A stretch of 64,000 nucleotides of DNA from Gammaproteobacteria bacterium (GTDB lineage: Bacteria > Pseudomonadota > Gammaproteobacteria > Eutrophobiales > Eutrophobiaceae), in the NCBI GenBank assembly GCA_021773235.1, contig JAJFKL010000045.1:12150-76149 (forward strand), written 5' to 3'. This document shows, piece after piece, positions 97 through 19,689 of this stretch. Position 1 is the stretch's first letter. Every line of letters starts with the position of its first letter. The position numbers and the translations under genes were made by a program. The notes beneath the pieces were generated by a model. That model made no database searches, was not told the origin of the DNA, and worked only from the letters and a program-made list of their open reading frames with translations.

Positions 97-525
97 TTAA
101 TGTTGTAAAAACTTATGCAGTCTTGCATCTTTTGTACTGAAATGATTTACAAACCAGTCTTGCAATCGTTCTCCAAACTCATCTTTATCCAGTGACTCTC
201 TTTCTTCATATTCATCCATTATGTCTCTAATACTATCCAATAGTGCTTCATGATCTTCTTTGTGGTCTTCAAATTGATCATATTTCAATTGTCTCATTTC
301 TTTTTCTTCCAATGCAAAATGTGCTGATATTTGCATGAAAACTTCTCCAAGTGCGTCCAACACAGCCAAGGTGGAACCGTCCTTTTCCGCTTCATTATAT
401 AACTCATTAATTAACTCTATTAATTCCTGATGTTCAAAATCGACTTCTTTTATGCCGATTTTAAAATCATCTCGCCATTCTAATAATGCCATTCTATTAA
501 TCTCACTGAAAATAAAACCCGCCAA
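97..525 (-). CDS. Bacteriohemerythrin (hemerythrin-like metal-binding domain protein)
   Basis: 142 aa. WRDDFKIGIKEVDFEHQELI start and later His/Glu/Asp-containing helices are typical of hemerythrin-like domains. Overlaps the upstream gene by 23 nt (same operon). Confidence 0.85.
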   Translation of the reverse strand: MAGFIFSEINRMALLEWRDDFKIGIKEVDFEHQELIELINELYNEAEKDGSTLAVLDALGEVFMQISAHFALEEKEMRQLKYDQFEDHKEDHEALLDSIRDIMDEYEERESLDKDEFGERLQDWFVNHFSTKDARLHKFLQH

Positions 526-1006
526 GGTCTTTTCTAAAATCTATAACAAAAATTTCTTTAGGTTCAATATTGATTACCGTATCACTCTCATAATCGTAAC
601 CCTCTTCTCGTCCACTATCTCTTAATTTTACAATTAACTGGTGTTCACCTGGTTTGACCGAAATCCTTTCATAGATAGAAGCGGAACCATCTTTAGCTAG
701 ACCGGTAGGGTTGTACGACTTACTTAATAAATTTTCACCATCCAACATAACGTCAACATAAAGAGGTACTCTCTCCCTTGGACAATCCATAGGTCGTCGC
801 ATATTGGGGGCTAATGTATTTAATTCTTCCTGTGTAAACTTACGACATTCTTCTTTGCGTTCACTAGCATGGCTAAAACTAACCATAATCAACGCCATCT
901 CAGAATCGTGATAGGTATAGCTCGGCGAATTCGAGAAATACCCTAGCATTAAACCAAAGAGTATAAACGAAACAATCTGACCAAGCAGCTGACTAAACCT
1001 AAGCAT
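503..1006 (-). CDS. Membrane-anchored hypothetical protein
   Basis: 167 aa. One N-terminal TM helix (IVSFILFGLMLGYF) followed by a soluble domain with no motif I recognise. Overlaps both neighbours (translational coupling). Confidence 0.5.
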   Translation of the reverse strand: MLRFSQLLGQIVSFILFGLMLGYFSNSPSYTYHDSEMALIMVSFSHASERKEECRKFTQEELNTLAPNMRRPMDCPRERVPLYVDVMLDGENLLSKSYNPTGLAKDGSASIYERISVKPGEHQLIVKLRDSGREEGYDYESDTVINIEPKEIFVIDFRKDLGGFYFQ

Positions 1007-2573
1007 CGACTTTCTCGCTACTTTTGTTTATTTTATTCTGGTCTTCGAGCTGTGCGGAATCAAGTTTATTCAAACGCAGGCGAAAAGTTGTTAGCTCTTT
1101 AAAAAATTCTTTTCGCCGAGTCATGCCTGCCCAGTATTTACCGATTCGATCCTGGTTTACCCGTTTGCGTATACGGGGATCACGTTGCCCAGCTAGACGC
1201 GCATCAGTCCATTTTATCCCTAGGCGGTAACTGCAGTCACCTTCACGACATCCTGTAAGAAAGACCCCATCAGCCAGTTTTTTCGATAATACAAAATCAA
1301 TAAATGAAGGTGGCAACATACCAATACAAGGCATGGTGACCACACCTACACTTGTATCTGATACTTCCACAGGATTGAGACTGTTATCACAACCGTAAAC
1401 AATAACCCGATCAGTCCCGGTAAGATTACGCGATGCACTAATCGTTTTATTTCTCAATATTTTGATCTTATCCTCCGGTAATTCTATTCCCGGAGATAAT
1501 TCAGACTTCGTTCTAAAGGGTGTCGCCGTTGGACATGAGCCGACACAAATACCACAACTAACACAATGACTGGCATCAACAACAGCTTCCATTTTATAAG
1601 CACTACCATCGCTACGTGGTTCCATATCGATCGCACTAAAAGGGCAGTCCGCAGCACAACGACTACAACCATTGCAATTATCAAGGTGTACGACCGCGAC
1701 TTCAGCACGCTTACCCGGTGGCATCCATGGCACCATCATTAACAACAATGTCGCGCCGATAAGTGCTATCCAGACAGTTAAGCCGGAGACATTATTCATG
1801 ATGGGATAGATTGGCATATAAAACCAATCCAGATTGACTGTGGTGGGAACGATACTTAAATCAGCAGGCGCCTGACTCAACGCTGGTTTTATAAAAGAGA
1901 GTATCAATAGCATGCTAAGTGTCGCTATAGCGAGTTCCTTAGGTGGATTAACTTTGGGCGTAGCATGCCTTTGAATGTGTATCCACATAACAAATAACAA
2001 AATTAGCGGTATAGCAATATGCATGAACACCATCAGCGTGAAAAAACGCCCACTCAATTTGGCATCAGTAAGAAAATTACGCGCGATCGCTTCACCAAAT
2101 ATTGGAACCGCATCTAAAAATTCAGCCGTGGTAATAGCAATATATTGAGCAAGCTGATCCCAAACCATCCAGTAACCGGAAATACCCGCGGTAAATACTA
2201 ACCAGAGCATAGGTATTCCAGTAAACCAGGCAAACCAACGCGAACTTCGGAATCGATCCATGGCGAACTCACGCAACAAGTGCACCATCATCATCACAAC
2301 TAAAGCGTCTGATGCATAGCGATGCAAACTACGCATGATACCGCCGGCATACCATTGTTCATGCGTCAGGTATTCCAAGGACTTATACGCCTGGCTAACA
2401 CCCGTGTCGAAGAATATGTATAGGTAGAGTCCACTAACAACAACGATCCAGTAATAAAACCAACCCAATGCACCCAATTGATAAAAAGGATTCCATTTAG
2501 CGCCAAAAAGAGCATCGAACGAATCTTCAAGATGCTCAAAACATATTCTCAATAACTTCTTTAATACTTCCAC
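999..2573 (-). CDS. Fusion protein: di-haem cytochrome b N-terminal domain + 2x[4Fe-4S] ferredoxin + MvhD/FlpD-like iron-sulfur domain
   Basis: 524 aa. Four His in TM helices (SLHRYASD, MMVHLL, FMHIAIP, MWIHIQRH). Two ferredoxin motifs: CNGCSRCAADCP and CVSCGICVGSCP. C-terminal YGCDNS...PCIGMLPP...GCREGDCSY is typical of the hydrogenase iron-sulfur subunit (MvhD-type) domain. Confidence 0.8.
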   Translation of the reverse strand: MEVLKKLLRICFEHLEDSFDALFGAKWNPFYQLGALGWFYYWIVVVSGLYLYIFFDTGVSQAYKSLEYLTHEQWYAGGIMRSLHRYASDALVVMMMVHLLREFAMDRFRSSRWFAWFTGIPMLWLVFTAGISGYWMVWDQLAQYIAITTAEFLDAVPIFGEAIARNFLTDAKLSGRFFTLMVFMHIAIPLILLFVMWIHIQRHATPKVNPPKELAIATLSMLLILSFIKPALSQAPADLSIVPTTVNLDWFYMPIYPIMNNVSGLTVWIALIGATLLLMMVPWMPPGKRAEVAVVHLDNCNGCSRCAADCPFSAIDMEPRSDGSAYKMEAVVDASHCVSCGICVGSCPTATPFRTKSELSPGIELPEDKIKILRNKTISASRNLTGTDRVIVYGCDNSLNPVEVSDTSVGVVTMPCIGMLPPSFIDFVLSKKLADGVFLTGCREGDCSYRLGIKWTDARLAGQRDPRIRKRVNQDRIGKYWAGMTRRKEFFKELTTFRLRLNKLDSAQLEDQNKINKSSEKVDA

Positions 2574-2576
2574 GTT

Positions 2577-3494
2577 TTACGATGTCCCTGTGATTTTATT
2601 ATTCTGTCGCCATGCTCGCACAATAAATACTGCTATAGCACCTAGAATGAGAATACCCATAGCTATTCCAATAAATATTGAATAATCAAATTCATAACGG
2701 CCACTATGTGGATCATAAATTGTACAAAACAAACGAATATTATTTATCCAACCTTCCACCAGTGTCGATTCAGTGCGGTTACCGAATAGTAATTCTTTTA
2801 ACGGCTCAATCAGTTGTGGAGGTTCATATTTTACACCATAAATTTGCCGATAAACTTTTCCATCCGCATCAAGTAATGTTACCTGTGAAAGATGGTCAAA
2901 ACCTCTGGGTGATTTAAAAAAGATAAATCCCATATCATTACTAAAAGCTTTAATAGTCTCTTTATCAGTACTCAGAAAATCCCAGCCTGAAAAGCTAATA
3001 TTACGCTCACGTGCAAACAAACGCATGCGTTCTGGACTGTCTGCTTCTGTATCAAATCCGATAGTGACAACCGAGAAACTTTCATCGCCTAATGCATCTC
3101 GAGCAACCTCAATGACGTCAGCAAGAGAGTTGGTCAACGTTGGACAGATATGATGACAACTTGTAAAGATCATACTTACAATCAGGGGTTTTCCTCGATA
3201 TTGGGTAATATCGACAGGTTTTTTATCCTGATTAATAAAATTATAACTTTCTATTGTTCTATTTATTGCAGACTGACTAAATTCAAAGGCTTTATCTTTG
3301 TCGTATTGTTTTGCAAGCTGATGACCATCAGTGACCGAATAAGCATTGAGAGAAAAAAGATACAGGAAAACAAAACCAATCTTTTTTAGGGGGTTAATCT
3401 GGTTTGGTTTTTTATAATTTACGCATAGTACTTTAATTAAATAGAGCGACACATGATTCCCACATAATTTAAATAACCAACACATCCAGAACAC
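2577..3494 (-). CDS. senC: SCO1/SenC family copper chaperone with an extra C-terminal TM helix
   Basis: 305 aa. Thioredoxin-fold copper site FTSCHHICPT. Hydrophobic N-terminal anchor and C-terminal TM (IFIGIAMGILILGAIAVFIV). Start uncertain (M1 or M4); overlaps the ctaB end. Confidence 0.8.
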   Translation of the reverse strand: MFWMCWLFKLCGNHVSLYLIKVLCVNYKKPNQINPLKKIGFVFLYLFSLNAYSVTDGHQLAKQYDKDKAFEFSQSAINRTIESYNFINQDKKPVDITQYRGKPLIVSMIFTSCHHICPTLTNSLADVIEVARDALGDESFSVVTIGFDTEADSPERMRLFARERNISFSGWDFLSTDKETIKAFSNDMGFIFFKSPRGFDHLSQVTLLDADGKVYRQIYGVKYEPPQLIEPLKELLFGNRTESTLVEGWINNIRLFCTIYDPHSGRYEFDYSIFIGIAMGILILGAIAVFIVRAWRQNNKITGTS

Positions 3495-4335
3495 ATGCGC
3501 AGAGTAACAACGTCAGCTGTATTAATGAGGCATGGAAATTTTTTCGTGCAATCTCTATTGTTGGTTGACGTACCAAATCAAAACTAGTCTTTAAAAAATA
3601 TAAGCCGCCACTAAGTGCACCCAATAAATATAACCAACCTAGGCCATAAAAATAAGGGAGTATTGAAACCAGTACTAATGCCAACGTATGAGCAAATATA
3701 ATTTTTGCTGCTACCGGCTTTTCAAACACTGCCGGCAACATAGGCACACCAGCTTGCTTGTAATCATTGGCAAATACAAATGCCAGGCTCCAGAAATGAG
3801 GAGGCGTCCAGAGAAACAAGACTATCGCCAATAATATTGGCGCTGGAGATAAGGAAGGGTCAACTACTGCCGCACCACCGAGCACAGCAAAACTACCCGA
3901 TAATCCACCAATGACAATATTTAGCCAAGTTCGTTGTTTTAGCCAAACGGTATAAACAACACCATAGGTGAATGCACCTAGAAAAACATAGAGTGCCGCG
4001 ACTGAGTTGATTGCTATTGAAGTTCCCACCACAGAGATTAGCAACATCAACCCAATAACAGTTAACCAGTATTTATCCGCCTGAAAACGACCTGTTACAA
4101 ACGGTCGATTTCGTGTGCGCTTCATGGTTGCATCTAAATCACGTTCAACAAATTGATTAAATGCACCAGCACTGGCTGATGACATCAGTATGGCTAAACA
4201 AAACAGAAATATCTTCCACGTTTCCGGCAACGGCCCCGGCGTAATTGCGAGACCTGCAAGCCCGGTTATCATTATCGCAAAACCGATCCTGAGCTTACAG
4301 ACTGATACTAACTCTCTAATAACACCGGGCATCAT
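3469..4335 (-). CDS. ctaB: Protohaem IX farnesyltransferase (haem O synthase)
   Basis: 288 aa polytopic protein with the UbiA-family motif NQFVERDLDATMKRTRNRPFVTGR. Confidence 0.9.
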   Translation of the reverse strand: MMPGVIRELVSVCKLRIGFAIMITGLAGLAITPGPLPETWKIFLFCLAILMSSASAGAFNQFVERDLDATMKRTRNRPFVTGRFQADKYWLTVIGLMLLISVVGTSIAINSVAALYVFLGAFTYGVVYTVWLKQRTWLNIVIGGLSGSFAVLGGAAVVDPSLSPAPILLAIVLFLWTPPHFWSLAFVFANDYKQAGVPMLPAVFEKPVAAKIIFAHTLALVLVSILPYFYGLGWLYLLGALSGGLYFLKTSFDLVRQPTIEIARKNFHASLIQLTLLLCACVLDVLVI

Positions 4336-4351
4336 TATGAATGCTCCTGAC

Positions 4352-6046
4352 TTAACGCAGTGGCCAGACTTCTGCTAAGTATTTCCAGTTAACAAAGTAG
4401 TAAAGTACAAAACTCGTAAAAAAGACAACAACCAAAACAATCGTGCCCGGAATCGCAGGATGTTCTTCGTCACCATGCTCGGCAACAACTGCTGCATTTT
4501 CATCGGTAGGTACAGCCGTAGGTGCTTCAGTACTATCAACCTTCTTACCAAAGAATATCGAACCCACTGCAACAGCGATAAACATAGCACCGCCCACCCC
4601 AGCTAAAATTGCACTCATACCATTCAAGCCCATCATCAGATTGGCTGCACCTGGAAAATCATAAGGAAGCACCGCATCAGCCTGAGAAATATCCCAATGG
4701 CGTCTTGGCACACCCAGAGTTCCTGCGCCCATCATGAACACAGAGATACCAGCAACACCCAGTCCGAAGACGTAGGGCTGAAGCTTTGCCATTCCAGGAA
4801 ACATTATCTCTTTTTGAAAAATAAGCGGAATTAATAAATAGGTCACAGCCATAAATGCCAGTGTGGTCCCTGCTACAACGGTCGCATGAAAATGTCCTGG
4901 CACATATATAGTGTTATGAATTATCAGGTTGATTTGCTCAACCCCCATAACAACACCCGATATGCCACCAAGAAAGCCAAACAGTATCAAGGAAACAAAC
5001 ATCCCTGAGAAAGCGGGATTTCCCCATGGGCATTTACGTAGCCATTCAAACAGTCCATTGGTATAGCCTTTACTACGTTGTGCTGCTTCGATCTGTCCTG
5101 GCACAGTCATACCATGAACCATACTTCCGAGTACCGCCAAATAGATGGCATAACTGGTATTAAAGATTTTCCACTCAGAGCTGATACCTGGATCAACTAG
5201 TAAATGATGCGCACTGGCAAGTTGTAGAAACAGTACATAGAGGAGGAAAGCACCGCGACTAACTTTTTCAGACAAGGGTTTTGCACCCAATACCACTGCC
5301 GATATTAAATACCAGATAGAGATATGCGCCGCAACATTGATCTGTTGTGATGAATGTCCAAATGCCCACCATATAGTCCGATACATTAAAGTATCAATAT
5401 GGCTAACATAGCCGATAGACCACAGAAAAGTTGGTATTAGTATGATTGCACCTGATGCAATCGTAAACACAGCAATAATGGCTGCCACCGTTGCACCAAA
5501 GGTTACCAGGGGCACCGAACCTTCATACGTTTTTTCCTGTTTCGCTATTACCAACGTGCCGAAGAAAACAAAGCAACCGATCAAGGCACCCACGGCGAAA
5601 AGTATGACACCTGCGTAAAACGAAGGATCTGCTTTTAATGGCACATAGGATGTAAACATGACACTTGAACCACCCTGTAATACGGCAATATTAGTGACAA
5701 TTGCACCAATCAACATCAAGGCAAAACCAGCCCACGCCCATTTTGGTGTTGCCAGTCGACTCCCTAAAAGTACCGACGAGGCAAAATATAAGACCGCCAT
5801 TTCAAAGAAAATGATCCATACCACCAAGAGATTTATGCCATGTGCGGTAAGCGCAAGATAAAACCAATCTGCAGGTAACAAGTGGACAGCCTTCCAACGC
5901 GTTAATGCCACCATTATCCCAAAGAGTCCACCGACAAGCAGGAAGACTACCGCTACCACGGCGTTTGCCTTAATCAGATTTTCAGCTGATTTATAAACAC
6001 GTAACCCTGTCGTTTGGCATGTTCTGTACTGTTCATTAATTGCCAT
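4352..6046 (-). CDS. Haem-copper oxidase superfamily subunit I, B-family-like, lacking the cross-link tyrosine (candidate NO reductase subunit)
   Basis: 564 aa, about 13 TM. His ligands at TAHGINL (H69), WWAFGHSSQQ (H231), SAHHLL (H280/281) and PGHFHATV (H385/387). Gln sits at H231+4 where HPxVY enzymes have Tyr. Confidence 0.9.
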   Translation of the reverse strand: MAINEQYRTCQTTGLRVYKSAENLIKANAVVAVVFLLVGGLFGIMVALTRWKAVHLLPADWFYLALTAHGINLLVVWIIFFEMAVLYFASSVLLGSRLATPKWAWAGFALMLIGAIVTNIAVLQGGSSVMFTSYVPLKADPSFYAGVILFAVGALIGCFVFFGTLVIAKQEKTYEGSVPLVTFGATVAAIIAVFTIASGAIILIPTFLWSIGYVSHIDTLMYRTIWWAFGHSSQQINVAAHISIWYLISAVVLGAKPLSEKVSRGAFLLYVLFLQLASAHHLLVDPGISSEWKIFNTSYAIYLAVLGSMVHGMTVPGQIEAAQRSKGYTNGLFEWLRKCPWGNPAFSGMFVSLILFGFLGGISGVVMGVEQINLIIHNTIYVPGHFHATVVAGTTLAFMAVTYLLIPLIFQKEIMFPGMAKLQPYVFGLGVAGISVFMMGAGTLGVPRRHWDISQADAVLPYDFPGAANLMMGLNGMSAILAGVGGAMFIAVAVGSIFFGKKVDSTEAPTAVPTDENAAVVAEHGDEEHPAIPGTIVLVVVFFTSFVLYYFVNWKYLAEVWPLR

Positions 6047-6049
6047 TGT

Positions 6050-6595
6050 TTATATCCCCTCGTTATCGACGACATATATCCTGCCGAGCATTGTGTGATG
6101 TCCAATACCACAATATTCATTACAGACGACTCCAAATTCCCCTGTCGTCGTAGGTGTAACTGTGAGCACCATTTCGTAATCAGGATGTATTTGTAAGTTA
6201 ATATTTATCGGCTGCAAAGAAAAACCGTGCATCCAGTCCAAAGAAGATAAGTGAAGTCGATATGACTGACCTTTTTCCAATTCCAGGATTGGCCACCACT
6301 GCCAGAGTCTGGCAATCATATAGACATCTGAACCAGGAGGCGGACGGACAACCGGATAACCGGATTCTTCACGGACTGTATATTTATCCGTCATTGCTTC
6401 AGTTTTTTCAGTGAACTGTTCTGCTGTGATTTTATATGCTTCGTTAGATAAGTTTTGTTCACCATAAGCGTGCCAGTAGATCATCATGAAAAACATAATC
6501 AATCCCCAGACGAAAGCGACGATGACCCAGATAAGCTCGGATTTTGGGACAGAATCATTCCACCAGATCCTGCTTTTTGGAGGGGTAACTGACAT
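6050..6595 (-). CDS. Haem-copper oxidase subunit II with CuA centre
   Basis: 181 aa. N-terminal TM hairpin, cupredoxin domain with HGFSL and the CuA motif CNEYCGIGHHTM. A 3-nt gap separates it from subunit I. Confidence 0.85.
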   Translation of the reverse strand: MSVTPPKSRIWWNDSVPKSELIWVIVAFVWGLIMFFMMIYWHAYGEQNLSNEAYKITAEQFTEKTEAMTDKYTVREESGYPVVRPPPGSDVYMIARLWQWWPILELEKGQSYRLHLSSLDWMHGFSLQPININLQIHPDYEMVLTVTPTTTGEFGVVCNEYCGIGHHTMLGRIYVVDNEGI

Positions 6596-6615
6596 AGTGT
6601 TGTCTCCTTAAATTA

Positions 6616-6792
6616 TTATTTTGCTACAGGGATGGTAATGATTTCCATAATGCCCCAGATAACATAAAAGACAGTTGGAATAGTGACGCCGAGAAAGAGC
6701 AATAGAAAAGGATTATCTATTATCTGTTGCATGACTGGTATTCGTTCAGATTCTGTGTCGCTATCGCTAGACACGCCATTTTCTTCAGACAT
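6616..6792 (-). CDS. Small single-TM protein, first gene of the oxidase operon (possible extra subunit)
   Basis: The track ORF 6616..6843 is trimmed here to the internal ATG at 6792, which has a GGGGG Shine-Dalgarno 4 nt upstream. Acidic N-terminus, then TM FLLLFLGVTIPTVFYVIWGIMEI. Confidence 0.45.
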   Translation of the reverse strand: MSEENGVSSDSDTESERIPVMQQIIDNPFLLLFLGVTIPTVFYVIWGIMEIITIPVAK

Positions 6793-6913
6793 ATCGCCCC
6801 CTAATATATTAAAAGATCGTAGATATACTCTACTTTCATACATTTAATTTGAGTGCGACAATTTGTCCACTCAATTATAGAGAGCCAATCTATGCTGTAT
6901 TTAATCTATATGT

Positions 6914-6927
6914 CTTGACCTAGATCA
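6914..6927 (-). promoter_or_regulatory. FNR/Dnr-type box (TTGAC-CTAG-ATCAA, 9/10) upstream of the oxidase operon
   Basis: Read directly from the sequence. A TAGATT -10-like hexamer lies about 31 bp downstream on the minus strand, which is class II spacing. Confidence 0.55.
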
Positions 6928-6972
6928 AGAAGAATGGTGGAATAATACAACGAACTTATATTTCTAATATAT

Positions 6973-7155
6973 TCAACCACTTAGGGCGCGTATTACAGTA
7001 AAGGAACTCACGGCAAGTATCAAAATAATTACAAAAAAGACTAGACTGCGATACTCAAATTTTCGGCCCGAGGCTTTTTCAATCTGCACCAGTATCCAGT
7101 CTGAACCGAGATAAAGGATAATTCCGGCTAAGGTGTATGCCACTATTTCAGTCAT
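6973..7155 (-). CDS. Small two-TM membrane protein (hypothetical)
   Basis: 60 aa with two hydrophobic helices. AGGAT-like ribosome-binding site upstream. No recognisable motif. Confidence 0.35.
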   Translation of the reverse strand: MTEIVAYTLAGIILYLGSDWILVQIEKASGRKFEYRSLVFFVIILILAVSSFTVIRALSG

Positions 7156-7288: not shown

Positions 7289-8272
7289 TTGCTTGTATCA
7301 ATCATGCAATTCCTTAAAAGCAATCACTATCCAAAGAAATGTTTTTTTCTTTTGAATTGTAGCGCCTTAATCATGTCGTTACTGATTGTATTTTTAAGCA
7401 CACACATCAGGCTCGGAGAAGCGGGCTTGGGTTGCTCCCCATGGCCTGATTGTTATGCACAGCTCTCTTTTGCTGATGGTCCCAAAGGACTTCAAATACC
7501 GGACTCCGAATTTAAAATATTTCGGTCTATGCATCGCAGCATAGCAAGTATATTGGGTCTTAATATTTTAGTTATCATGTTAATAGCACTTTGGTTTCGC
7601 AAAACAACATCACCGTTATTACCAATATTGATGTTTCTAGTTGTTCTTTTTCTTTCAATATTAGGAATTGCGACACCGACAAGAAGTTTACCCCTTGTTA
7701 CATTGGGAAATATTCTAGGCGGTATAGTTTTGTCAGGTCTTGTATGGAGACAAATCCTGTCGACTAAAGACAGACCGAAAAAATCCGCACCCTTTATTTT
7801 GTTTCTAGTATCTATAACACTGACAGTGCAACTGATCAGTGGTGCCTGGGCAAGTGCAAATTACACGGGATCTGCCTGCCCGAAATTATTATCATGCACC
7901 TATACGAATGACATAACAGGCAACCTGCTCGATAGCTTAAATGTATTACGCAAACTAACACTGGATAGTGATTGCCATCTGATACTGAATGAAACATCCA
8001 GCATTATTCAATTTAACCATAGGCTCATCGCCGTAATATTATTAATAATAATTGTTGTAGCCTTATGGAAAGTAAGACGTGAATACCCCTCTTTACTCAA
8101 ACCATTAATGATTGTCAGTGTTGTTTTCTTTGCTGAGTTTATTCTCGGGGTCGTTAATGTATTAACTGAAATGCCGTTATGGACAAACACACTGCATAAT
8201 TTATTAGCAGTGGGATTATTATTTGCTACGATTAATTTAACGATGCTAATTCATCGCAATAGTGGCCATTAA
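7289..8272 (+). CDS. ctaA: Haem A synthase (COX15/CtaA family)
   Basis: 327 aa, about 8 TM. Cys pair GLGCSPWPDC, a second pair CPKLLSC, and conserved His in SMHRS, FNHRL and LHNLL. Start uncertain (TTG at 7289 or ATG at 7304). Confidence 0.75.
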   Translation: MLVSIMQFLKSNHYPKKCFFLLNCSALIMSLLIVFLSTHIRLGEAGLGCSPWPDCYAQLSFADGPKGLQIPDSEFKIFRSMHRSIASILGLNILVIMLIALWFRKTTSPLLPILMFLVVLFLSILGIATPTRSLPLVTLGNILGGIVLSGLVWRQILSTKDRPKKSAPFILFLVSITLTVQLISGAWASANYTGSACPKLLSCTYTNDITGNLLDSLNVLRKLTLDSDCHLILNETSSIIQFNHRLIAVILLIIIVVALWKVRREYPSLLKPLMIVSVVFFAEFILGVVNVLTEMPLWTNTLHNLLAVGLLFATINLTMLIHRNSGH

Positions 8273-8811: not shown

Positions 8812-10182
8812 TCAACTTTGTATTTGTTCCGTTGATTTATTTAACATCGCTTTGATCACAATAACAATAAACATAAAACCACCAACCGCAGACAGTAACC
8901 CACCTATTCCCATTACGCCCATTCCGGCAATACGCTCTATTGAATCCAAACCCTGTGCAGCGCCAGCAACTTTTCGTTGAACACCGTATCCCCCAGACCA
9001 GACCAGACCGGCAATATGGAGAAACTGTCCTGAGGCATAGAACCAAAGCTGTATTTTCGAAAGCTTGAAATTAACTTTGATAAAACCCAAGGCGGGTAAT
9101 AATTGATAACAAAGCCCCATCAATGCCAATGAAACACCAACAATACAACCATGGTAATGCGCAGGGATCTTGACGTTATTGCCATCAATCATGAAACCCA
9201 TCATGCCCCCTACTCCGAATAACATTAACGAAGTCAGTAAGGCAGCATACGCTGAAGATCCTTTAGCTGAATCTACTTTCTTTTGAAACAGTGTAAATAA
9301 TATCGCCATACTCAACGGAAATACGGCAAGGCTTCCGCCAAAACTCATCAACATAGTAAATATTTGACGATGAGAAATATCTGTAACGTCATACGCATAG
9401 TAAACAAGTGGTGTCGCAAATATTGAGAGCAAACCAACACCAAACAAAAATAAGGCAACTCTCGGACTTAATGGTAGAGAGAGTCCAGCACTCGATAATA
9501 ACCATAACCAGGCCACCATCATTAACAAAGTATAGGTAAATTGAAGTACGTGTCCCCCACCCCAGAAAAGGAGTTCGTAATAAACTTCACTGACTAATTG
9601 AATAGGCAAACTAATGTATGACCAGACAAAGGCTGCCAGCGCGACAAAAACGCCAATCGCTGCACAATTTAATCCAAATCGAATAACACCTTGACCGCTA
9701 ATCGTTTCCCCAACCTTAGTCATTGCACTCATACTGAATATAACTTGCAATCCGATTCCCGCACCGAAAATAACTAGGCCAACAAGAAAAAGTGAATCAT
9801 CCAACACTGGAATATAATTACTCATTAGTGCATTGGCACTGCCCATAAAAGGTGAAATAGTAATTATCAGGGTTCCTAGAAGTACAACAATAAAACTCAA
9901 TCGAGCAAGCCATGGAAATACAGGACGACTATTTAGGCTCCATAGGACACTCGCAAAAGATAATATCCACACTAAAGAAGACAGGTTGACATGTATAACC
10001 AGAGCTGTGTGGAAGAAATCAACGAATGGAATAAGTTCACCGACTATCGGTGTTCTGGCAAGAACCAACAATACTGAGAAAATTCCTGCCCCAAATAAAG
10101 TAAGTATAGCTAACCAGAACCAGGCAACTGCCAGATCTCTTCTATAATCAGTTGGCACGTCAAGTACATATTTAAAAAACAT
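8812..10182 (-). CDS. Divergent NorB/CcoN-like (haem-copper oxidase subunit I-like) 12-TM protein lacking the HH metal-ligand pair
   Basis: 456 aa. FFHTALVIH (H58/H64), LFWGGGHVLQF (H211) and PAHYHG (H342/H344) match the spacing of NorB/CcoN ligands. There is no HH doublet anywhere, and the expected region reads PLVYYAYDVTDISHR. Confidence 0.7.
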   Translation of the reverse strand: MFFKYVLDVPTDYRRDLAVAWFWLAILTLFGAGIFSVLLVLARTPIVGELIPFVDFFHTALVIHVNLSSLVWILSFASVLWSLNSRPVFPWLARLSFIVVLLGTLIITISPFMGSANALMSNYIPVLDDSLFLVGLVIFGAGIGLQVIFSMSAMTKVGETISGQGVIRFGLNCAAIGVFVALAAFVWSYISLPIQLVSEVYYELLFWGGGHVLQFTYTLLMMVAWLWLLSSAGLSLPLSPRVALFLFGVGLLSIFATPLVYYAYDVTDISHRQIFTMLMSFGGSLAVFPLSMAILFTLFQKKVDSAKGSSAYAALLTSLMLFGVGGMMGFMIDGNNVKIPAHYHGCIVGVSLALMGLCYQLLPALGFIKVNFKLSKIQLWFYASGQFLHIAGLVWSGGYGVQRKVAGAAQGLDSIERIAGMGVMGIGGLLSAVGGFMFIVIVIKAMLNKSTEQIQS

Positions 10183-10205: not shown

Positions 10206-10700
10206 TTAATAACTCAAAATAGACTTTTTATTTGAATCTGATTTTATAAACACCAGACCCATTGCTAAACCAAACAAGAGTTTTGAGATCAAGGTCACTA
10301 TAAGAGGCATTAAGGAAATAAATGATGGATTGAGTATCGGTAAAACAACAAAGAAATTAACAACCCACACAATGGCGAGCGTTGTAAAACTGCATACAAT
10401 AACACTACGGTTACCAAATTGACGAGCTACTGATTTTAATATTATTGCATTAAAAGAAATGGCTAATATCAGTGACAGTATCAAATGGAACAGGATACCA
10501 AGCATCGGTGCATAATAGGAGGTCGCTGTGAAAGGCAATAGTGTCACTGATATTTCTCGCGCTACATTTGTCGCACTAACTGAACTCAGGGAGCTATATA
10601 GACTAACCCAGAAGATTTCCATCATGCCACCAACTATTCCGGCTGTAATCACAGTTACATCTAAACTATTAATCTCGCTGCGGGAATATTTATTCTGCAT
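10206..10700 (-). CDS. Polytopic membrane protein (hypothetical), between nirN and the NorB-like gene
   Basis: 164 aa, 4-5 predicted TM helices, no recognisable motif. Same strand as its neighbours, with short gaps. Confidence 0.5.
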   Translation of the reverse strand: MQNKYSRSEINSLDVTVITAGIVGGMMEIFWVSLYSSLSSVSATNVAREISVTLLPFTATSYYAPMLGILFHLILSLILAISFNAIILKSVARQFGNRSVIVCSFTTLAIVWVVNFFVVLPILNPSFISLMPLIVTLISKLLFGLAMGLVFIKSDSNKKSILSY

Positions 10701-10743: not shown

Positions 10744-12324
10744 TTAATGACTGGTGCCGCTGGATCTCGTAATTTTATTATAGACATTATATTTCCCAGA
10801 AGGCTTTTTCATCGGGAGTCGTTTAATCTCTTCGAGTGAATTAGCATCATAAATTATAATAGCACCATCGTTATCCCAAATACTCAATATCGCATAGCGT
10901 CCATCTTTTGTGAACTCAACATGCGCTGCTGTTTTACCAGGTTCCGGCTTGAGTGTTTTTACAATTTCCAAAGTGGCTTTGTCGATAATATGAACGACAT
11001 CTTTATTTGGCCCAAAGAACACATCGACCCATGCATAAGGTGTTTTTTCATGACTACGCATAAAGAACCCCGGTCCTTGTGTGTCAATACGTTTAATCGT
11101 CTTCCAGTCATTCATATCAATGACACTAACAACACCGTCTTTCAGGTTTGGGGTGGCGAGTATAGGTTTACCTTGGTATTCCCAAGTAATCCCTGAGCCC
11201 ATATGAGGTAAGCCCGGAAGATCAAGTTCTGAGTCTTTCTTTCCCAGAACCAAATCAACAACCTGGCCATTCTTTGAATTTCTGGCAGCCCCAATCAAGT
11301 ATTCATATTTCTGATCAAAGAAGAAGTCATCTAGATAATCATCCAACTCTATACGGCGCACTGGAAAAGGTTCTTGTTCCGGTGGCCCTTCATCTCGATG
11401 GTCATGTACCCAACCATAAAATGGCGGGTTATCTGAATAAGGAATTTCCCAAACTTCAGTAATGTCTTTTAATGCAGCAATAAAACTTTCACGCGGCCCT
11501 GCATCATAAACAGCACTAACACGTGAACTGTTTCCTGAATTATCTTTTACCTCGATAAGTTTGACCGGTGATAAGTCAGAGGTATTGAATATAACCAGCG
11601 TATGCGGCAAATAATTCGCGGCAATCACGTAACGACCATCACTGGATGTTGCAATGTTGCGTGTGTTTATTCCTGCACGAACTTCTGCCACTGTTTTCAG
11701 GTTATACATATCAAATTTTGATATCCAACCATCTCTCGACACAAAGAATACAAAGCGACCATCGGGTGAATATTTTGGCCCACCATGTAATGCATGTCGT
11801 GTTTTAAAACGGTGAATGGGTTCAAAGCGATCACCATCCAATACTGTTGCATGATGGTCGCCTGTTTCTACAACCAGAAACAGATTGAGAGGGTCAGCAT
11901 CAAATGTTGGTTTATTGCTTAATTGATCGTCCTTGAAATATTGAACGCGAGATTGCGTTATTTCTTTCATTCCCCACGCTGGCATTTCTTTTAATGGGGT
12001 ATAAATAAGATCTACCAGTAATGAAATTTCCTCATCATTTAGCTTACTGCCAAATGCAGGCATTTGCGTTGCTGCTAATCCATCACGTATCGATGCTGCA
12101 GCTTTTTTAGGTCTGACACGTTTTAGGTTTTCCGGGAGTAATGCCGGGCCAATACTGCCGAGACGATCCTGACCATGACATTCGGCACAATTATTTTTAT
12201 ACAATTGGGATACATCTGATTCTGCATAGACAGGAATCAGTCCACTTGTAATTATAATTAATAAAATTGAATTTAAGGTATTGAATCTAGATAACAACGG
12301 CATCGTTTGTGTTTTTCTCTTCAT
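10744..12324 (-). CDS. nirN: Cytochrome cd1-family protein NirN (dihydro-haem d1 dehydrogenase)
   Basis: 526 aa. Signal peptide, haem c motif CAECHG, then a d1-type beta-propeller paralogous to NirS/NirF. Lies after nirJ, as in Pseudomonas nirJEN. The start may be M8 (12303). Confidence 0.8.
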   Translation of the reverse strand: MKRKTQTMPLLSRFNTLNSILLIIITSGLIPVYAESDVSQLYKNNCAECHGQDRLGSIGPALLPENLKRVRPKKAAASIRDGLAATQMPAFGSKLNDEEISLLVDLIYTPLKEMPAWGMKEITQSRVQYFKDDQLSNKPTFDADPLNLFLVVETGDHHATVLDGDRFEPIHRFKTRHALHGGPKYSPDGRFVFFVSRDGWISKFDMYNLKTVAEVRAGINTRNIATSSDGRYVIAANYLPHTLVIFNTSDLSPVKLIEVKDNSGNSSRVSAVYDAGPRESFIAALKDITEVWEIPYSDNPPFYGWVHDHRDEGPPEQEPFPVRRIELDDYLDDFFFDQKYEYLIGAARNSKNGQVVDLVLGKKDSELDLPGLPHMGSGITWEYQGKPILATPNLKDGVVSVIDMNDWKTIKRIDTQGPGFFMRSHEKTPYAWVDVFFGPNKDVVHIIDKATLEIVKTLKPEPGKTAAHVEFTKDGRYAILSIWDNDGAIIIYDANSLEEIKRLPMKKPSGKYNVYNKITRSSGTSH

Positions 12325-17946: not shown

Positions 17947-19689
17947 TTATTGTTTTACTGCATTGAGTTCAGCTTCGTCATTATCAAAACCTAGTTTATA
18001 ACCTAGAGATACATGATGGTAACGACCATTGGTATAATCATCATGGATTGCAAAACCAAAGTTATATACTTGATCAGTAACCAAACTAACATCACCTGAC
18101 TTATCAGAAACAAGTTTGCGTTTCATCACGATAGTCCAAACACCATCAGACAAACTGGATGTAGACTCTGCACCCTGACCACCTTCCATATAACGTTGTT
18201 CAAGAATGTAGCCATCTTCAGATTTGCCAGTGCCAGCCTGATAACGAATCAGATCCATGAAATGACCTGCTTCCAGTTCAGCTTTGATTTCATCTTCATT
18301 CTTAAGTTTGTCCCAACCACCTAATTTTTTACCGCCACGTCCCTTGAGTTCAATTTTGGTACGACTCTCAGTAATGAACTTACTAATACCTTGTTCAAGA
18401 TTCAGAGCTAAACCACTTGCAGATAAATCGTCTGCGGTCGGCTCAAGAGGCATACCTTTCGCATCAATATGACAAGTCCCCCAGCAACCTGCCCTGTCAG
18501 CGTAAGTAACATCATCAGTTGCTAACATAATGGCAAATTTTATCTGGTTATCAGCATCCATCTTGCCACCATCAACAAAAGGCGCAGGCGTGTGCGCTGT
18601 TTCTGGAAATTGGAAGCGCATATAGAGATTTTCTCCATCATGGGTAGCTCGAACACTAACAGGGATACTGCCTCGTTTATCGGGTATTACTGTATCCGTT
18701 TCTGCCAGATACTCATGCTCTCCGGAAACGATTAGCTCCCCGATATCAACAGTCTCTTCGTCGTGACATTCGAAACAACGATCTCCCGAATTAAAAGCTC
18801 GCTTACCACTATGGTTTTTACCTAAGGTCCATTCCATTGAAGCTTGTCCTGGATAAAAGATATTAATTAATCGTTCAGGTGCCTTTTCCCAATCAACACC
18901 AGATGAGTCCGACGCTGCAGATGCAGGAGCAGCCTCTGTAACTTCTTCAGCGACGGCTGTTTCCTCTTTAGCGACTTCTACTTTTTTAGGTTCTACAGCA
19001 GCTGCTTTTGTTTCTTTTGGTTTTTTGTCTGCATTCATGAACTTATCATAGGCCTCAGGTATAGGGCGTATGAAATCAGGGTTGGGTTTTTCCAGTTCAT
19101 CTTTTTCTTCTTCGGTTAACTGGTCATGTACTTTCTTATGCGCAATACCCTTATGACAATCAATACAGGTCTGGCCTGTTTTCATTGCATTATAATGTTG
19201 TTTACGAGCACGCGGTTTTTGTGCTGCCGGATCCATTGTCGATATTTCATGGCAATTACGACATTCTCTGGAATCGGATGCTTTCATCCGTTTCCACTCA
19301 CTTTTGGCCATGTGTAGACGGTATTTTTCGAACTTTTCTGGCGTATCGATCGTACCCATTACTTTGTGCAATAACTCATTACTCGCCTGTATTTTACGTT
19401 TTATCTTATAAAGCCAGGGACGAGGAACATGACAGTCCGGGCAACCAGCCCTGACACCACTTCGATTTGCATCATGAATCGTACCTTTATATTCCTGATA
19501 CACATTATCTTCCATTTCATGACACGAGATACAAAAATCCATTGTATTCGTTGCTTCCATTCCCGTATTAAAACCGCCCCAAAAAATCACTCCGATAAAC
19601 ATGAAGAAAATGGCAACACCCAAGGTAGTACCAAAAATAATTTTTCGGTTAAGAAAACTGGAAAATATATGATTATCTGGTCGTGTCAT
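17947..19689 (-). CDS. nirT: NapC/NirT-type tetrahaem quinol dehydrogenase fused to a C-terminal haem-binding (EB_dh/DOMON-like) domain
   Basis: 580 aa. N-terminal TM; CISCH, CPDCH, CRNCH and CIDCH motifs. An Ala/Glu/Lys-rich linker is followed by about 310 aa carrying CFECH and CWGTCH, and [16 protein letters not shown]. Confidence 0.85.

What the first reader, a model, noticed from the sequence alone, without database searches (positions are those of the whole stretch)
97..7155. FNR-box-driven haem-copper oxidase operon with a tyrosine-less catalytic subunit: candidate alternative NO reductase (eNOR/sNOR-like) beside the nir genes
**Seen in subunit I (4352..6046).**
- It keeps all six canonical haem-copper oxidase histidines (my numbering H69; H231; H280/H281; H385/H387). 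The spacing is nearly the same as I remember for Thermus ba3.
- The residue four positions after the first CuB His is Gln (WWAFGHSSQQINV). O2-reducing A/B-family enzymes carry the cross-linked Tyr there (HPxVY).
- No Tyr follows the HH pair either (SAHHLLVDPG).

**Seen in the rest of the operon.**
- Subunit II has a complete CuA site (CNEYCGIGHHTM).
- The operon continues with haem O synthase, SenC, a cyt b-ferredoxin-MvhD fusion, a 167-aa anchored protein and a hemerythrin. Haem A synthase is divergent.
- A TTGAC-N4-ATCAA box lies at class II distance from a TAGATT -10.
- No norCB is visible in a window that encodes a complete nirS/haem d1 system.

**Established.** CuA-containing, Tyr-less, B-like oxidase families have been proposed or shown to reduce NO. 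Examples are sNOR (the norSY-senC-orf1 cluster of ammonia oxidisers) and eNOR.

**Inference.** This is the NO reductase of the island, with an unusually rich accessory gene set.
Basis: partly seen in the sequence, partly recalled or inferred. Interest (0 to 1): 0.75.

Follow-up and report, generated by a model that had tools for sequence, protein, structure and literature searches.

The report
eNOR-type nitric oxide reductase operon
This operon encodes a member of the already described eNOR family of nitric oxide reductases, next to the nitrite reductase genes of an uncultured marine gammaproteobacterium; it is a well-conserved example, not a new kind of enzyme.

Summary
Window 97-7155 (minus strand) is a tightly packed operon for a CuA subunit II, a haem-copper subunit I, haem O synthase, SenC, a cytochrome b-2x[4Fe-4S]-MvhD fusion, a 167-aa anchored protein and a bacteriohemerythrin. 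Haem A synthase is divergent.

Subunit I keeps all six metal and haem histidines. It has Gln235 where O2 reductases carry the cross-linked Tyr. Published work gives that Gln as the diagnostic residue of eNOR; sNOR and bNOR have Asn.

All 245 clade members aligned share GH-x-x-Q-Q-[IV]-N. In a 35-sequence NJ tree the 15 QQ-motif sequences form one clade (95% bootstrap). It includes Thermus (His/Lys haem-ligand variant), Thermomicrobium and a haloarchaeon, and is separate from the HPxVY B-family.

The accessory set is not unusual. Of 60 related loci with enough flank, 59 carry the cytochrome b fusion and the 167-aa gene, 60 carry SenC and 53 carry hemerythrin.

An FNR-type box sits at -41.5. Similar boxes occur upstream in 41 of 76 related loci, about 31 times the background density.

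Verdict: a new member of a known family. NO reduction is inferred, not assayed. The role of the cytochrome b-FeS module, and a second CuB-less oxidase-like gene at 8812-10182, remain open.

The parts
6915..6928 (-). FNR/Dnr-type box, TTGATCTAGGTCAA on the minus strand. Its centre is at -41.5 relative to the start implied by the TAGATT -10 at 6892-6887.
   Evidence: Sequence read; pattern scan. Similar boxes (one mismatch or fewer) lie upstream of the small ORF/subunit II in 41 of 76 related loci: 1.43 per kb against 0.046 per kb elsewhere in those loci.
6973..7155 (-). 60-aa two-helix membrane ORF (sm60). It lies upstream of the FNR box here. Function unknown.
   Evidence: ORF. tblastn homologues at the same position in 43 of 82 related loci. 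Two hydrophobic segments. Moderately conserved.
6616..6792 (-). 58-aa single-helix membrane protein (sm58). Probable small eNOR subunit, in the same position as subunit IIa (cbaD) of the ba3 operon.
   Evidence: ORF with an AGGGGG ribosome-binding site. Present in 78 of 82 related loci. Strongly conserved motif DNPFLLLFLG..P..Y.IWG. Homologous small ORFs precede subunit II in Thermus, Thermomicrobium and Defluviimonas. No Pfam or PDB match. The subunit role is inferred.
6050..6595 (-). eNOR subunit II: one TM helix plus a cupredoxin domain with a complete CuA site.
   Evidence: PF00116 and TIGR02866-like hits below cutoff. Ligands H123, C158, C162, H166, M169, conserved in 83 sequences. E20 before the TM helix is conserved; its equivalence to E15 at the ba3 channel entrance is recalled from memory, since no ba3 subunit II alignment was run.
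4352..6046 (-). eNOR subunit I (564 aa): catalytic haem-copper-superfamily subunit with Gln235 in place of the cross-linked Tyr.
   Evidence: PF00115, E 5e-66. Best solved relatives are B-family ba3, E 1e-46. Six His confirmed. GH-x-x-Q-Q-[IV]-N invariant in 245 clade members. QQ clade has 95% NJ bootstrap. At least 576 species genomes carry a relative.
3469..4335 (-). Haem O synthase (CtaB/CyoE), the first step towards the A-type haem of eNOR.
   Evidence: TIGR01473, 261 bits against a cutoff of 210. Present downstream of subunit I in 47 of 60 loci with enough flank.
2577..3494 (-). SCO1/SenC copper chaperone with a C-terminal TM helix. Presumed to load CuA.
   Evidence: PF02630, E 3e-15. Present in 60 of 60 loci. 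The role is inferred from the known function of the family.
999..2573 (-). Fusion protein: a bc1/b6f-type di-haem cytochrome b (helices A-F with a DW[FY] motif where cytochrome b has PEWY), two [4Fe-4S] ferredoxin motifs and an MvhD-like four-Cys domain. The Fe-S part is predicted to be cytoplasmic.
   Evidence: Pfam Cytochrome_B, Fer4_7 and FlpD. Haem ligands H84/H98 and H185/H199 are 100% conserved; 8 + 4 Cys are 97-99% conserved; D249-W250 is 100% conserved in 70 sequences. Present in 59 of 60 loci. Topology and function are inferred.
503..1006 (-). 167-aa protein with an N-terminal membrane anchor and a beta-rich domain holding two conserved Cys. Possibly the 'eNOR scaffold protein of unknown function' of the Ferrigenium preprint (no sequence comparison was made).
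   Evidence: No Pfam or NCBIfam hit even at E 5. Present in 59 of 60 loci. Conserved residues. The single-sequence model has low confidence (pLDDT 56).
97..525 (-). Bacteriohemerythrin (di-iron O2/NO-binding protein), last gene of the operon.
   Evidence: NF033749, 98.8 bits against a cutoff of 84. H/E/D-containing motifs typical of hemerythrin are conserved (their role as iron ligands is inferred from the family). Present in 53 of 60 loci.
7289..8272 (+). Haem A synthase (CtaA/COX15), divergent from the operon.
   Evidence: PF02628, E 2e-31. Murali et al. [quoted passage not shown]
8812..10182 (-). Second, highly divergent haem-copper-oxidase-like protein (HCO456). It lacks two of the three CuB/FeB histidines. 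It lies between nirN and ctaA. Association with the eNOR/haem A genes is suggested; function unknown.
   Evidence: PF00115, E 2e-17. hhalign against the B/eNOR alignment gives probability 99.9%. Model pLDDT 83, best fold match ba3. Sits inside the eNOR operon in L075 and L084, and next to CtaA in six of the ten contexts examined.

Best explanation
The operon encodes an eNOR-family nitric oxide reductase. This is a B-family-derived haem-copper enzyme that has lost the cross-linked Tyr needed for O2 reduction.

**Proposed mechanism.**
- Electrons from a periplasmic donor enter at CuA of subunit II.
- They pass to the low-spin haem (H69/H387).
- They then reach the binuclear site: the high-spin haem on H385 plus a non-haem metal held by H231, H280 and H281.
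- There, 2 NO + 2 e- + 2 H+ give N2O + H2O.
- Protons probably arrive from the cytoplasm through a K-channel analogue (subunit II E20; subunit I T314, S308, H311, Y246, S259, Y270, up to Q234/Q235). The step would then be electrogenic.

**Supporting genes.**
- The hemes are A-type, made by the in-operon CtaB and the divergent CtaA.
- SenC loads CuA.
- A 58-aa membrane protein is probably a third, IIa-like subunit.
- Transcription starts from a class II FNR/Dnr-type promoter, so the enzyme appears together with NirS at low O2 or in the presence of NO.
- The cytochrome b-2[4Fe-4S]-MvhD fusion, the 167-aa anchored protein and the hemerythrin are fixed companions in the proteobacterial clade. Their role is not established. 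The best guess is a quinol-linked electron or redox module, plus O2/NO handling for haem A synthesis.

**Shown here:** gene content, ligands, the Gln signature, clade membership, operon conservation and box conservation.

**Inferred:** NO-reductase activity, metal identity, proton uptake, cofactor type and all accessory functions.
For: **Sequence and family.**
- Six His ligands and a complete CuA site.
- Gln235 aligns with the ba3 cross-linked Tyr. Gln at this site is the published diagnostic of eNOR, against Asn in sNOR/bNOR and Tyr in O2 reductases (PMC8756737 Table A4).
- Q234, Q235, N237, S308 and H311 are invariant in 245 clade members. B-family representatives have V, Y, W, S and T there.
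- The QQ clade is monophyletic at 95% NJ bootstrap. It contains the Thermus protein with the HFK His/Lys low-spin ligand variant that Murali et al. describe for some eNORs, Thermomicrobium (59% identical to an Ardenticatenales protein, the order in which eNOR was reported), and a haloarchaeon.
- In the plasmid search there is a clear identity gap between clade members (45-67%) and true ba3 (31% or less).

**Published biochemistry and expression.**
- R. marinus eNOR reduces NO and not O2, uses haem As, and CtaA is frequent in eNOR operons (PMC11214002).
- eNOR subunit I and II transcripts were the most abundant of the three haem-copper oxidoreductases (eNOR, cbb3, COX) under denitrifying growth of Ferrigenium, and eNOR was detected in the proteome.

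**Context.**
- A complete nirS and haem d1 gene set lies 4-20 kb away.
- nirS or nirN lies within 10 kb in 16 of 60 related loci.
- The FNR-type box is at -41.5, and such boxes are about 31-fold enriched upstream of the operon across 76 loci.
- The genes overlap or are separated by 16 nt or less.
Against: - No activity, expression or cofactor data exist for this protein or any member of its proteobacterial subclade examined here.
- The characterised R. marinus sequence could not be retrieved, so the link to biochemistry runs through shared signature and clade, not a direct pairwise comparison.
- The tree is NJ on 35 sequences, not a curated ML phylogeny or the authors' HMMs.
- A compensating Tyr cannot be formally excluded without coordinates. 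Y270 and Y222 are clade-conserved, although both are ten or nine residues along their helices from the CuB ligands.
- Haem A synthesis needs O2 and a hemerythrin is present, which would also fit a microaerobic oxidase.
- The nearby Crp/Fnr-family regulator lacks the FNR Cys cluster and has GTLSR instead of E--SR, so the factor that reads the box is unknown.
Confidence: 0.85

Rival explanations
1. It is a ba3-like, high-affinity terminal O2 reductase for microaerobic respiration, as the public annotations say ('cytochrome c oxidase subunit I').
For: - Best solved relatives are ba3 oxidases.
- All six His and CuA are present.
- The haem A pathway needs O2.
- Hemerythrin and FNR-type control fit low-O2 respiration.
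- Every database name seen is 'cytochrome c oxidase'.
Against: - The cross-linked Tyr that supplies the fourth electron for O2 reduction is replaced by Gln in all 245 clade members.
- No conserved Tyr lies within a helical turn of the CuB ligands.
- The characterised family member cannot reduce O2.
- The clade is separate from the HPxVY B-family.
- The names come from automatic annotation, which is known to mislabel eNOR.
Confidence: 0.05
2. It is an eNOR-family enzyme, but NO respiration is not its main job. Together with the cytochrome b-FeS-MvhD fusion it forms a different machine. One possibility is a quinol-oxidising complex that uses the very high potential of NO (or another acceptor) to push the second electron to a cytoplasmic low-potential carrier. 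Another is a pure NO-detoxifying or NO-sensing device.
For: - The fusion and the 167-aa protein accompany subunit I in 59 of 60 loci.
- All cofactor ligands, and a DW[FY] motif at the position of the PEWY motif of the cytochrome b quinol-oxidation site (recalled from memory, not tested by alignment), are conserved.
- A related idea (quinol:NAD+ oxidoreductase supercomplex) was raised for Ferrigenium.
- The measured turnover of R. marinus eNOR is low, 0.68 NO per second.
Against: - No Rieske-type or other obvious high-potential partner is encoded.
- The Thermus and Thermomicrobium eNOR loci examined (L085, L087) lack the fusion, so it is not needed for catalysis.
- There are no experimental data.
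- Linkage to nirS/nirN in 16 of 60 loci favours a denitrification role.
Confidence: 0.08
3. It is an sNOR or bNOR-type enzyme: the norSY-senC-orf1 kind of ammonia oxidisers, or the Bacillus CuA-NOR.
For: It has a CuA subunit, lacks the Tyr, has SenC in the operon, and an unknown ORF follows.
Against: - sNOR and bNOR carry Asn at the Tyr position; here it is Gln, invariantly.
- sNOR lacks the ba3 S309 equivalent; here S308 is invariant.
- In the representative-library search, all full-length relatives scoring above the HPxVY B-family carry Q at the +3 position; those with Q also at the Tyr site group with eNOR-type sequences.
Confidence: 0.01

Closest known systems
eNOR of Rhodothermus marinus DSM 4252 (Murali et al. 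2024, PMC11214002), the only biochemically characterised member of the family
   Same: - Two-subunit, CuA-containing, B-family-derived haem-copper enzyme.
- Tyr-less active site with three His.
- Residues similar to the B-family K-channel.
- A-type haem and a CtaA association.
- Occurs in a nirS-carrying denitrifier.
   Different: - The R. marinus sequence could not be fetched, so identity is unknown. By analogy with Thermus and Thermomicrobium it is probably around 45%.
- Whether the R. marinus operon has the cytochrome b-FeS-MvhD fusion, the 167-aa protein and hemerythrin was not checked.
- Activity is shown for R. marinus and only inferred here.
eNOR operon of Ferrigenium straubiae KS (bioRxiv 10.64898/2026.01.22.701106)
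   Same: - Operon of eNOR II, eNOR I, haem O synthase, Sco1 and a 'scaffold protein of unknown function'.
- A cytochrome b-[Fe-S] fusion gene is also present.
- Expressed under denitrifying conditions.
   Different: - The preprint calls the cytochrome b fusions 'rather unusual'. Here the fusion is present in 59 of 60 related loci across Gamma-, Alpha- and Betaproteobacteria.
- Ferrigenium has an extra fusion with FAD/NADH domains, which is not seen in this window.
- This window adds hemerythrin and a divergent CtaA.
Thermus thermophilus cytochrome ba3 (B-family O2 reductase; PDB 1EHK, 1XME, 3S8F)
   Same: - Same fold and nearly the same spacing of all six His.
- CuA subunit II.
- A small ORF ahead of subunit II.
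- K-channel positions S261, S309, T315 and Y248 are matched by S259, S308, T314 and Y246.
   Different: - ba3 positions V236, Y237, W239, T312 and Y244 read Q234, Q235, N237, H311 and I242 here.
- E82 and Y270 are clade-specific.
- Identity to B-family representatives is only 26-31%.
- ba3 reduces O2; eNOR does not.
sNOR (norSY-senC-orf1 of ammonia oxidisers) and bNOR/CuANOR of Bacillus azotoformans
   Same: CuA-containing, Tyr-less relatives of the B-family. sNOR also has SenC in its cluster.
   Different: They have Asn, not Gln, at the Tyr position. sNOR lacks the S309 equivalent. They form separate clades.
cNOR/qNOR (NorCB, NorZ)
   Same: Same reaction and the same superfamily.
   Different: [quoted passage not shown]
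- They have a haem c or quinol entry instead of CuA.
- A Glu ligand binds FeB.
- They have no cytoplasmic proton channel.
- None is encoded in this window.

Membership tests
eNOR (haem-copper superfamily NO reductase, Hemp & Gennis 2008; Murali et al. 2024) | Subunit I of the haem-copper superfamily with the six canonical His ligands | tested here: met
   PF00115, E 5e-66. H69, H231, H280, H281, H385 and H387 are invariant or nearly so in 245 sequences.
eNOR (haem-copper superfamily NO reductase, Hemp & Gennis 2008; Murali et al. 2024) | Gln at the position of the cross-linked active-site Tyr (H-x3-Q) | tested here: met
   Q235 aligns with the ba3 Tyr. It is 245/245 Gln in the clade and Tyr in the B-family and the archaeal GHxxQY group. 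The criterion comes from PMC8756737 Table A4.
eNOR (haem-copper superfamily NO reductase, Hemp & Gennis 2008; Murali et al. 2024) | Derived from, or related to, the B-family and not the C-family/cNOR | tested here: met
   All 19 PDB sequence hits are B-family ba3-type oxidases (Aquifex 7deg, Thermus ba3). In the NJ tree it sits beside the B-type groups.
eNOR (haem-copper superfamily NO reductase, Hemp & Gennis 2008; Murali et al. 2024) | CuA-binding cupredoxin subunit II | tested here: met
   H123, C158, C162, H166 and M169, conserved in 83 sequences.
eNOR (haem-copper superfamily NO reductase, Hemp & Gennis 2008; Murali et al. 2024) | Conserved polar residues resembling the B-family K-channel | tested here: met
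   S308 and Y246 are invariant. S259 is S or N. T314 is T or S. H311 replaces T312. Subunit II E20 is conserved. The authors' own residue list (Dataset S1) was not available, and no structure was inspected.
eNOR (haem-copper superfamily NO reductase, Hemp & Gennis 2008; Murali et al. 2024) | Clusters phylogenetically with recognised eNORs | tested here: met
   95% NJ bootstrap for a clade with the Thermus His/Lys variant, Thermomicrobium (an Ardenticatenales relative) and a haloarchaeon. The R. marinus and Magnetospirillum sequences themselves were not obtainable.
eNOR (haem-copper superfamily NO reductase, Hemp & Gennis 2008; Murali et al. 2024) | A-type (As) haem in both sites; CtaA/CtaB associated | tested here: inconclusive
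   The genes for CtaB (in the operon) and CtaA (divergent) are present. The cofactor itself cannot be determined from sequence.
eNOR (haem-copper superfamily NO reductase, Hemp & Gennis 2008; Murali et al. 2024) | Reduces NO to N2O and does not reduce O2 | not testable with these tools
   Requires an enzyme assay. Shown only for R. marinus eNOR.
sNOR / bNOR | Asn at the Tyr position | tested here: not met
   Gln235, invariant.
B-family O2 reductase (ba3 type) | Cross-linked His-Tyr cofactor (HPxVY) | tested here: not met
   HSSQQ replaces HPxVY.
gNOR | One CuB His replaced by Asp; subunit II without CuA ligands | tested here: not met
   All three His and a full CuA site are present.
cNOR / qNOR / nNOR | Three His plus a Glu ligand at the FeB site (Glu at the Tyr-equivalent active-site position); no CuA in cNOR/qNOR | tested here: not met
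   Position +4 is Gln and CuA is present. No sequence similarity to NorB or NorZ structures was reported.

The most novel reading that the evidence does not exclude
The cytochrome b-2[4Fe-4S]-MvhD fusion, the 167-aa anchored protein and the 58-aa subunit form, with eNOR, a Rieske-less bc-like supercomplex.

In this reading, quinol is oxidised at a Qo-like site marked by the invariant DW[FY] motif. One electron goes to CuA and on to NO. The other crosses the membrane through the two b haems to cytoplasmic Fe-S clusters. The very high potential of the NO/N2O couple would then drive reduction of a low-potential cytoplasmic carrier.

The CuB-less oxidase-like protein at 8812-10182, which travels with CtaA and sometimes sits inside the operon, would be a further unrecognised component, for example in haem A handling.
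Probability: 0.12. Interest if true: 0.75.

Novelty: new member of a known kind. Interest (0 to 1): 0.3.

Why it matters
**Practical value.** These genes are labelled 'cytochrome c oxidase' in the public records seen here. Genome-based denitrification budgets that look only for norB or norZ would therefore score this organism, and its many marine relatives, as lacking an NO reductase. Recognising the operon as eNOR closes the nirS-without-nor gap for this lineage. It also adds a possibly energy-conserving NO-reduction step.

**Beyond the verdict.**
- The proteobacterial eNOR operon has an almost invariant accessory module of unknown function (cytochrome b-FeS-MvhD, a 167-aa protein, hemerythrin, a 58-aa subunit).
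- It has a conserved FNR-type promoter.
- A cultured carrier with the whole operon on a plasmid, Defluviimonas sp. SAOS-178_SWC, would allow genetics.

Tried and rejected
- **R. marinus reference not reached.** I tried a representative-library search, cluster names, a genome scan, plasmid tblastn and a third homologue search seeded with Thermomicrobium. None returned Rhodothermus or Magnetospirillum. The link to the characterised enzyme rests on the signature and on other recognised eNOR lineages.
- **Supplementary tables.** The supplements of Murali et al. are not held, so their channel residue list and HMM cut-offs could not be used.
- **Tree building.** A Biopython bootstrap timed out. It was replaced by a numpy NJ with Kimura distances.
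- **The 167-aa protein.**
  - No Pfam or NCBIfam hit, even at E 5.
  - The single-sequence AlphaFold model was too poor (pLDDT 56) to justify a fold search.
  - A Cox11-like metallochaperone idea therefore remains untested.
- **The 58-aa ORF.** No match to ba3 subunit IIa or anything else in the PDB.
- **The second oxidase-like protein.** Sequence and profile searches against the PDB found nothing. Only profile-profile and fold comparison showed the relationship.
- **Rejected readings.** sNOR, gNOR, cNOR/qNOR and a conventional ba3 oxidase were considered and rejected on residue tests.
- **Active-site model.** I considered modelling subunit I to look for a compensating Tyr. The tool returns no coordinates, so distances could not be measured.

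Full report
**What is in the sequence**

The minus strand of window 97-7155 carries nine closely packed ORFs; gaps or overlaps are at most 26 nt. Pfam and NCBIfam assign them as follows:
- 6050-6595: COX2-like subunit II.
- 4352-6046: COX1, PF00115, E 5e-66.
- 3469-4335: haem O synthase, TIGR01473, above cutoff.
- 2577-3494: SCO1/SenC.
- 999-2573: a protein combining Cytochrome_B, two 4Fe-4S ferredoxin motifs and an FlpD/MvhD domain.
- 503-1006: an orphan 167-aa protein with one N-terminal hydrophobic helix.
- 97-525: bacteriohemerythrin, NF033749, above cutoff.

CtaA (7289-8272) is divergent.

**The active-site observation**

- Subunit II has the full CuA set: H123, C158, C162, H166, M169.
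- The best solved relatives are B-family oxidases, Aquifex 7deg and Thermus ba3, at E about 1e-46. Their alignments put Q235 under the cross-linked Tyr of HP(V/I)VY.
- No Tyr follows the HH pair. The conserved Tyr on that helix (Y270) is ten residues before H280.
- At the ba3 K-channel positions I find S259 (ba3 S261), Y246 (Y248), S308 (S309), H311 (T312), T314 (T315) and I242 (Y244).
- Subunit II has a conserved Glu (E20) just before its helix. I take it to correspond to ba3 E15, but that equivalence is recalled from memory and no ba3 subunit II alignment was run.

**Which family**

Published work gives the residue at the Tyr position as the family diagnostic: Tyr in O2 reductases, Glu in cNOR/qNOR, Asn in sNOR and CuANOR, Gln in eNOR, Asp for gNOR (PMC8756737 Table A4 after Hemp & Gennis 2008). 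Murali et al. 2024 purified R. marinus eNOR. They showed NO but not O2 reduction and haem As in both sites. They also noted that many eNOR operons contain CtaA, that eNOR keeps a B-type K-channel, and that some eNORs ligate the low-spin haem with His/Lys.

I tested these features as follows.
- **Representative search.** A search of 1.84 billion representatives, followed by alignment, separated four groups:
  - GHxxQQ: the window, a 55% relative, and a 42% haloarchaeal protein from Natrarchaeobius.
  - GHxxQY: an archaeal group that retains the Tyr.
  - HPxVY: the ordinary B-family.
  - An odd group with HH changed to YH.
- **Genome scan.** A scan of one genome per species using, among others, the pattern GH[SMG][ST]QQ[IV]N[VL] found at least 576 genomes with a relative. 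The best 80 are 68-90% identical. They span Gamma-, Alpha- and Betaproteobacteria and one Bacteroidota MAG.
- **Plasmid search.** tblastn against plasmids gave named organisms: Defluviimonas sp. SAOS-178_SWC (67%), denitrifying Thermus thermophilus strains (45%, next to nirS) and Thermomicrobium roseum (45%). Identity then drops to 31% or less for true ba3.
- **The His/Lys variant.** The Thermus protein reads HFK at the second haem ligand, which is the His/Lys variant described for eNOR.
- **Signature.** In 245 clade members Q234, Q235, N237, S308, H311, Y246 and E82 are invariant.
- **Tree.** An NJ tree with 200 bootstraps recovers the QQ clade at 95% and the proteobacterial subclade at 100%, apart from the HPxVY B-family.
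- **Chloroflexi link.** Thermomicrobium's protein is 59% identical to an Ardenticatenales protein. eNOR was reported in that order in 2015.

I therefore file subunit I as eNOR, not sNOR. The caveat is that the R. marinus sequence itself could not be retrieved.

**The accessory genes are the rule, not the exception**

I ran tblastn with each window protein against the 80 loci and a few others. Among the 60 loci with at least 6 kb downstream of subunit I:

| Gene | Loci carrying it |
|---|---|
| SenC | 60 |
| Cytochrome b fusion | 59 |
| 167-aa protein | 59 |
| Hemerythrin | 53 |
| CtaB | 47 |

- The order is conserved: small ORF, II, I, (CtaB), SenC, cytochrome b fusion, 167-aa protein, hemerythrin.
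- The 58-aa ORF is in 78 of 82 loci. Homologous small ORFs precede subunit II even in Thermus, Thermomicrobium and Defluviimonas. By position it matches ba3 subunit IIa (my own knowledge of the cbaDBA operon).
- In 70 fusion proteins the four haem His (H84/H98, H185/H199, both H-x13-H) are 100% conserved. The eight ferredoxin Cys and four MvhD-domain Cys are 97-99% conserved. A D249-W250-[FY] motif, which by my own knowledge of cytochrome b corresponds to the PEWY position (no alignment was run), is invariant at D and W.
- With six helices (A-F) by manual reading of the sequence against cytochrome b (the hydropathy scan flagged only three membrane segments at its threshold), the Fe-S domains should face the cytoplasm. 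This is an inference.
- A 2026 preprint on Ferrigenium straubiae describes the same core operon with a 'scaffold protein of unknown function'. It calls the cytochrome b-FeS fusions 'rather unusual' and proposes a supercomplex. My counts show the fusion is standard in this clade.
- The Thermus and Thermomicrobium loci examined lack it, so it is not required for catalysis.

**Regulation**

- On the minus strand TTGATCTAGGTCAA (6928-6915) is followed by exactly 22 nt and then TAGATT (6892-6887). The box centre is therefore at -41.5, a class II arrangement.
- The window holds 14 one-mismatch boxes against 6.6 +/- 2.4 expected. Perfect ones lie at 22956 (between the nirS operon and a second hemerythrin) and at 27901.
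- In 41 of 76 related loci a box with at most one mismatch lies within 350 nt upstream of the small ORF/subunit II. The density is 1.43 per kb against 0.046 per kb in the rest of those loci.
- The Crp/Fnr-family gene at 25502-26185 lacks the FNR Cys cluster, and its recognition helix reads GTLSR. Which regulator reads the box is open.

**Surroundings**

- Upstream on the same strand lie nirS (19824-21452), a NirT fusion, nirF, four nirD/L/G/H-type genes, nirJ and nirN (10744-12324). cysG lies further upstream at 23950-25341.
- All 14 ORFs of 400 aa or more in the window were scanned, and none is NorB or NorZ.
- Between nirN and ctaA there is a second COX1-family gene, 8812-10182 (PF00115, E 2e-17):
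  - It has no PDB or NCBIfam match by sequence or by profile.
  - It aligns with the B/eNOR profile at 99.9% probability.
  - Its model (pLDDT 83) matches ba3 best, with TM about 0.7.
  - It keeps H64, H211, H342 and H344, has an invariant Q214 and F at the Tyr site, and replaces the HH pair with Tyr residues.
  - Its relatives sit next to CtaA in six of the ten contexts examined. In several Betaproteobacteria they sit inside the eNOR operon after the 167-aa gene.
  - It does not fit the active-site description of any family in Murali et al. I leave it unexplained.

**Mechanism and confidence**

The best-supported reading is a respiratory, probably electrogenic, NO reductase. It would take electrons through CuA and protons through a K-channel analogue. 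It would be built with A-type haem and CuA by the co-encoded CtaB, CtaA and SenC, and switched on with NirS by an FNR/Dnr-type factor.
- **Shown here:** the ligands, the Gln signature, clade membership, operon conservation and box conservation.
- **Inferred:** activity, FeB against CuB, haem type, proton uptake and all accessory roles.

I put eNOR membership with NO-reductase function at 0.85, a conventional O2 reductase at 0.05, a different primary role built around the cytochrome b module at 0.08, and sNOR/bNOR at 0.01.

**Novelty and interest**

eNOR was named in 2008 and characterised in 2024. It is now counted routinely: 860 of 1486 nor genes in one estuarine catalogue, where it was the most abundant and most expressed type.

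What remains of interest:
- the near-universal but unexplained cytochrome b-FeS-MvhD, 167-aa and hemerythrin module;
- the conserved small subunit;
- the FNR footprint;
- the CuB-less oxidase-like protein next door.

Noticed in passing
window 8812-10182 (-): Second, very divergent haem-copper-oxidase-like protein (456 aa). It keeps the haem ligands and the first CuB His. It has an invariant Gln at +3 and Phe at the Tyr site, and Tyr residues replace the HH pair. It has the HCO fold (pLDDT 83, best match ba3). The family has over 100 members at 59-100% identity. It was next to CtaA in six of ten contexts examined and is sometimes inside eNOR operons (L075, L084). It fits none of the published NOR families by active site.
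   Followed up: partly
window 10206-10700 (-): 164-aa membrane protein with four or five hydrophobic segments, between nirN and the second oxidase-like gene. It has only a weak YqhR-like Pfam hit (E 4e-4, below cutoff).
   Followed up: partly
window 17947-19689 (-): NapC/NirT tetrahaem cytochrome fused to an EB_dh (ethylbenzene-dehydrogenase-like haem-binding) domain, directly downstream of nirS. A possible dedicated quinol-to-periplasm electron route for Nir and/or eNOR.
   Followed up: no
window 22956-22969 and 23266-23847 (+): A perfect FNR box (TTGATGCAGATCAA) lies between the nirS-side operon (438-aa orphan protein, then nirS) and a divergent second bacteriohemerythrin. That hemerythrin has an N-terminal extension of about 55 aa.
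   Followed up: partly
window 25502-26185 (-): Crp/Fnr-family regulator without the N-terminal Cys cluster of O2-sensing FNR, and with GTLSR in the recognition helix. Best NCBIfam hit is FtrB, below cutoff. It may or may not be the factor that reads the FNR-type boxes.
   Followed up: partly
proteins P0250, P0252, P0255, P0268 (Hodarchaeales, Thermoproteota and unnamed): An archaeal group with GHxxQY. It shares eNOR-specific residues (Q234, N237, H311, E82, Y270) but keeps the Tyr. It looks like the O2-reductase grade from which eNOR arose by a Tyr-to-Gln change. Two of the four are sister to the eNOR clade in the NJ tree.
   Followed up: partly
proteins P0305, P0317, P0332 (one named Dehalococcoidia): Another odd haem-copper group: FH-x2-HY at the CuB His1 region, the HH pair changed to YH, and the first His of the helix X H-x-H motif (H385 equivalent, the high-spin haem ligand) replaced by Tyr (GYFH, AYLH, AYVH).
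   Followed up: no
L085 8983-10668 (Thermus thermophilus TF24 plasmid pTF24b): Thermus eNOR-type subunit I with HFK instead of HFH (His/Lys low-spin haem ligation). It lies beside nirS and is followed by an Rrf2-family regulator. It is annotated as a ba3-type oxidase.
   Followed up: partly
L086 8184-14930 (Defluviimonas sp. SAOS-178_SWC plasmid): A cultured alphaproteobacterium carries the complete operon on a 165-kb plasmid: small ORF, II, I, cyoE, SCO, cytochrome b fusion, hypothetical protein, hemerythrin. Subunit I is 67% identical to the window protein. A practical system for genetics.
   Followed up: partly
window 31112-31573 (+): A cytochrome c' gene (NO-binding haem protein family) lies about 10 kb from the nir cluster.
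   Followed up: no
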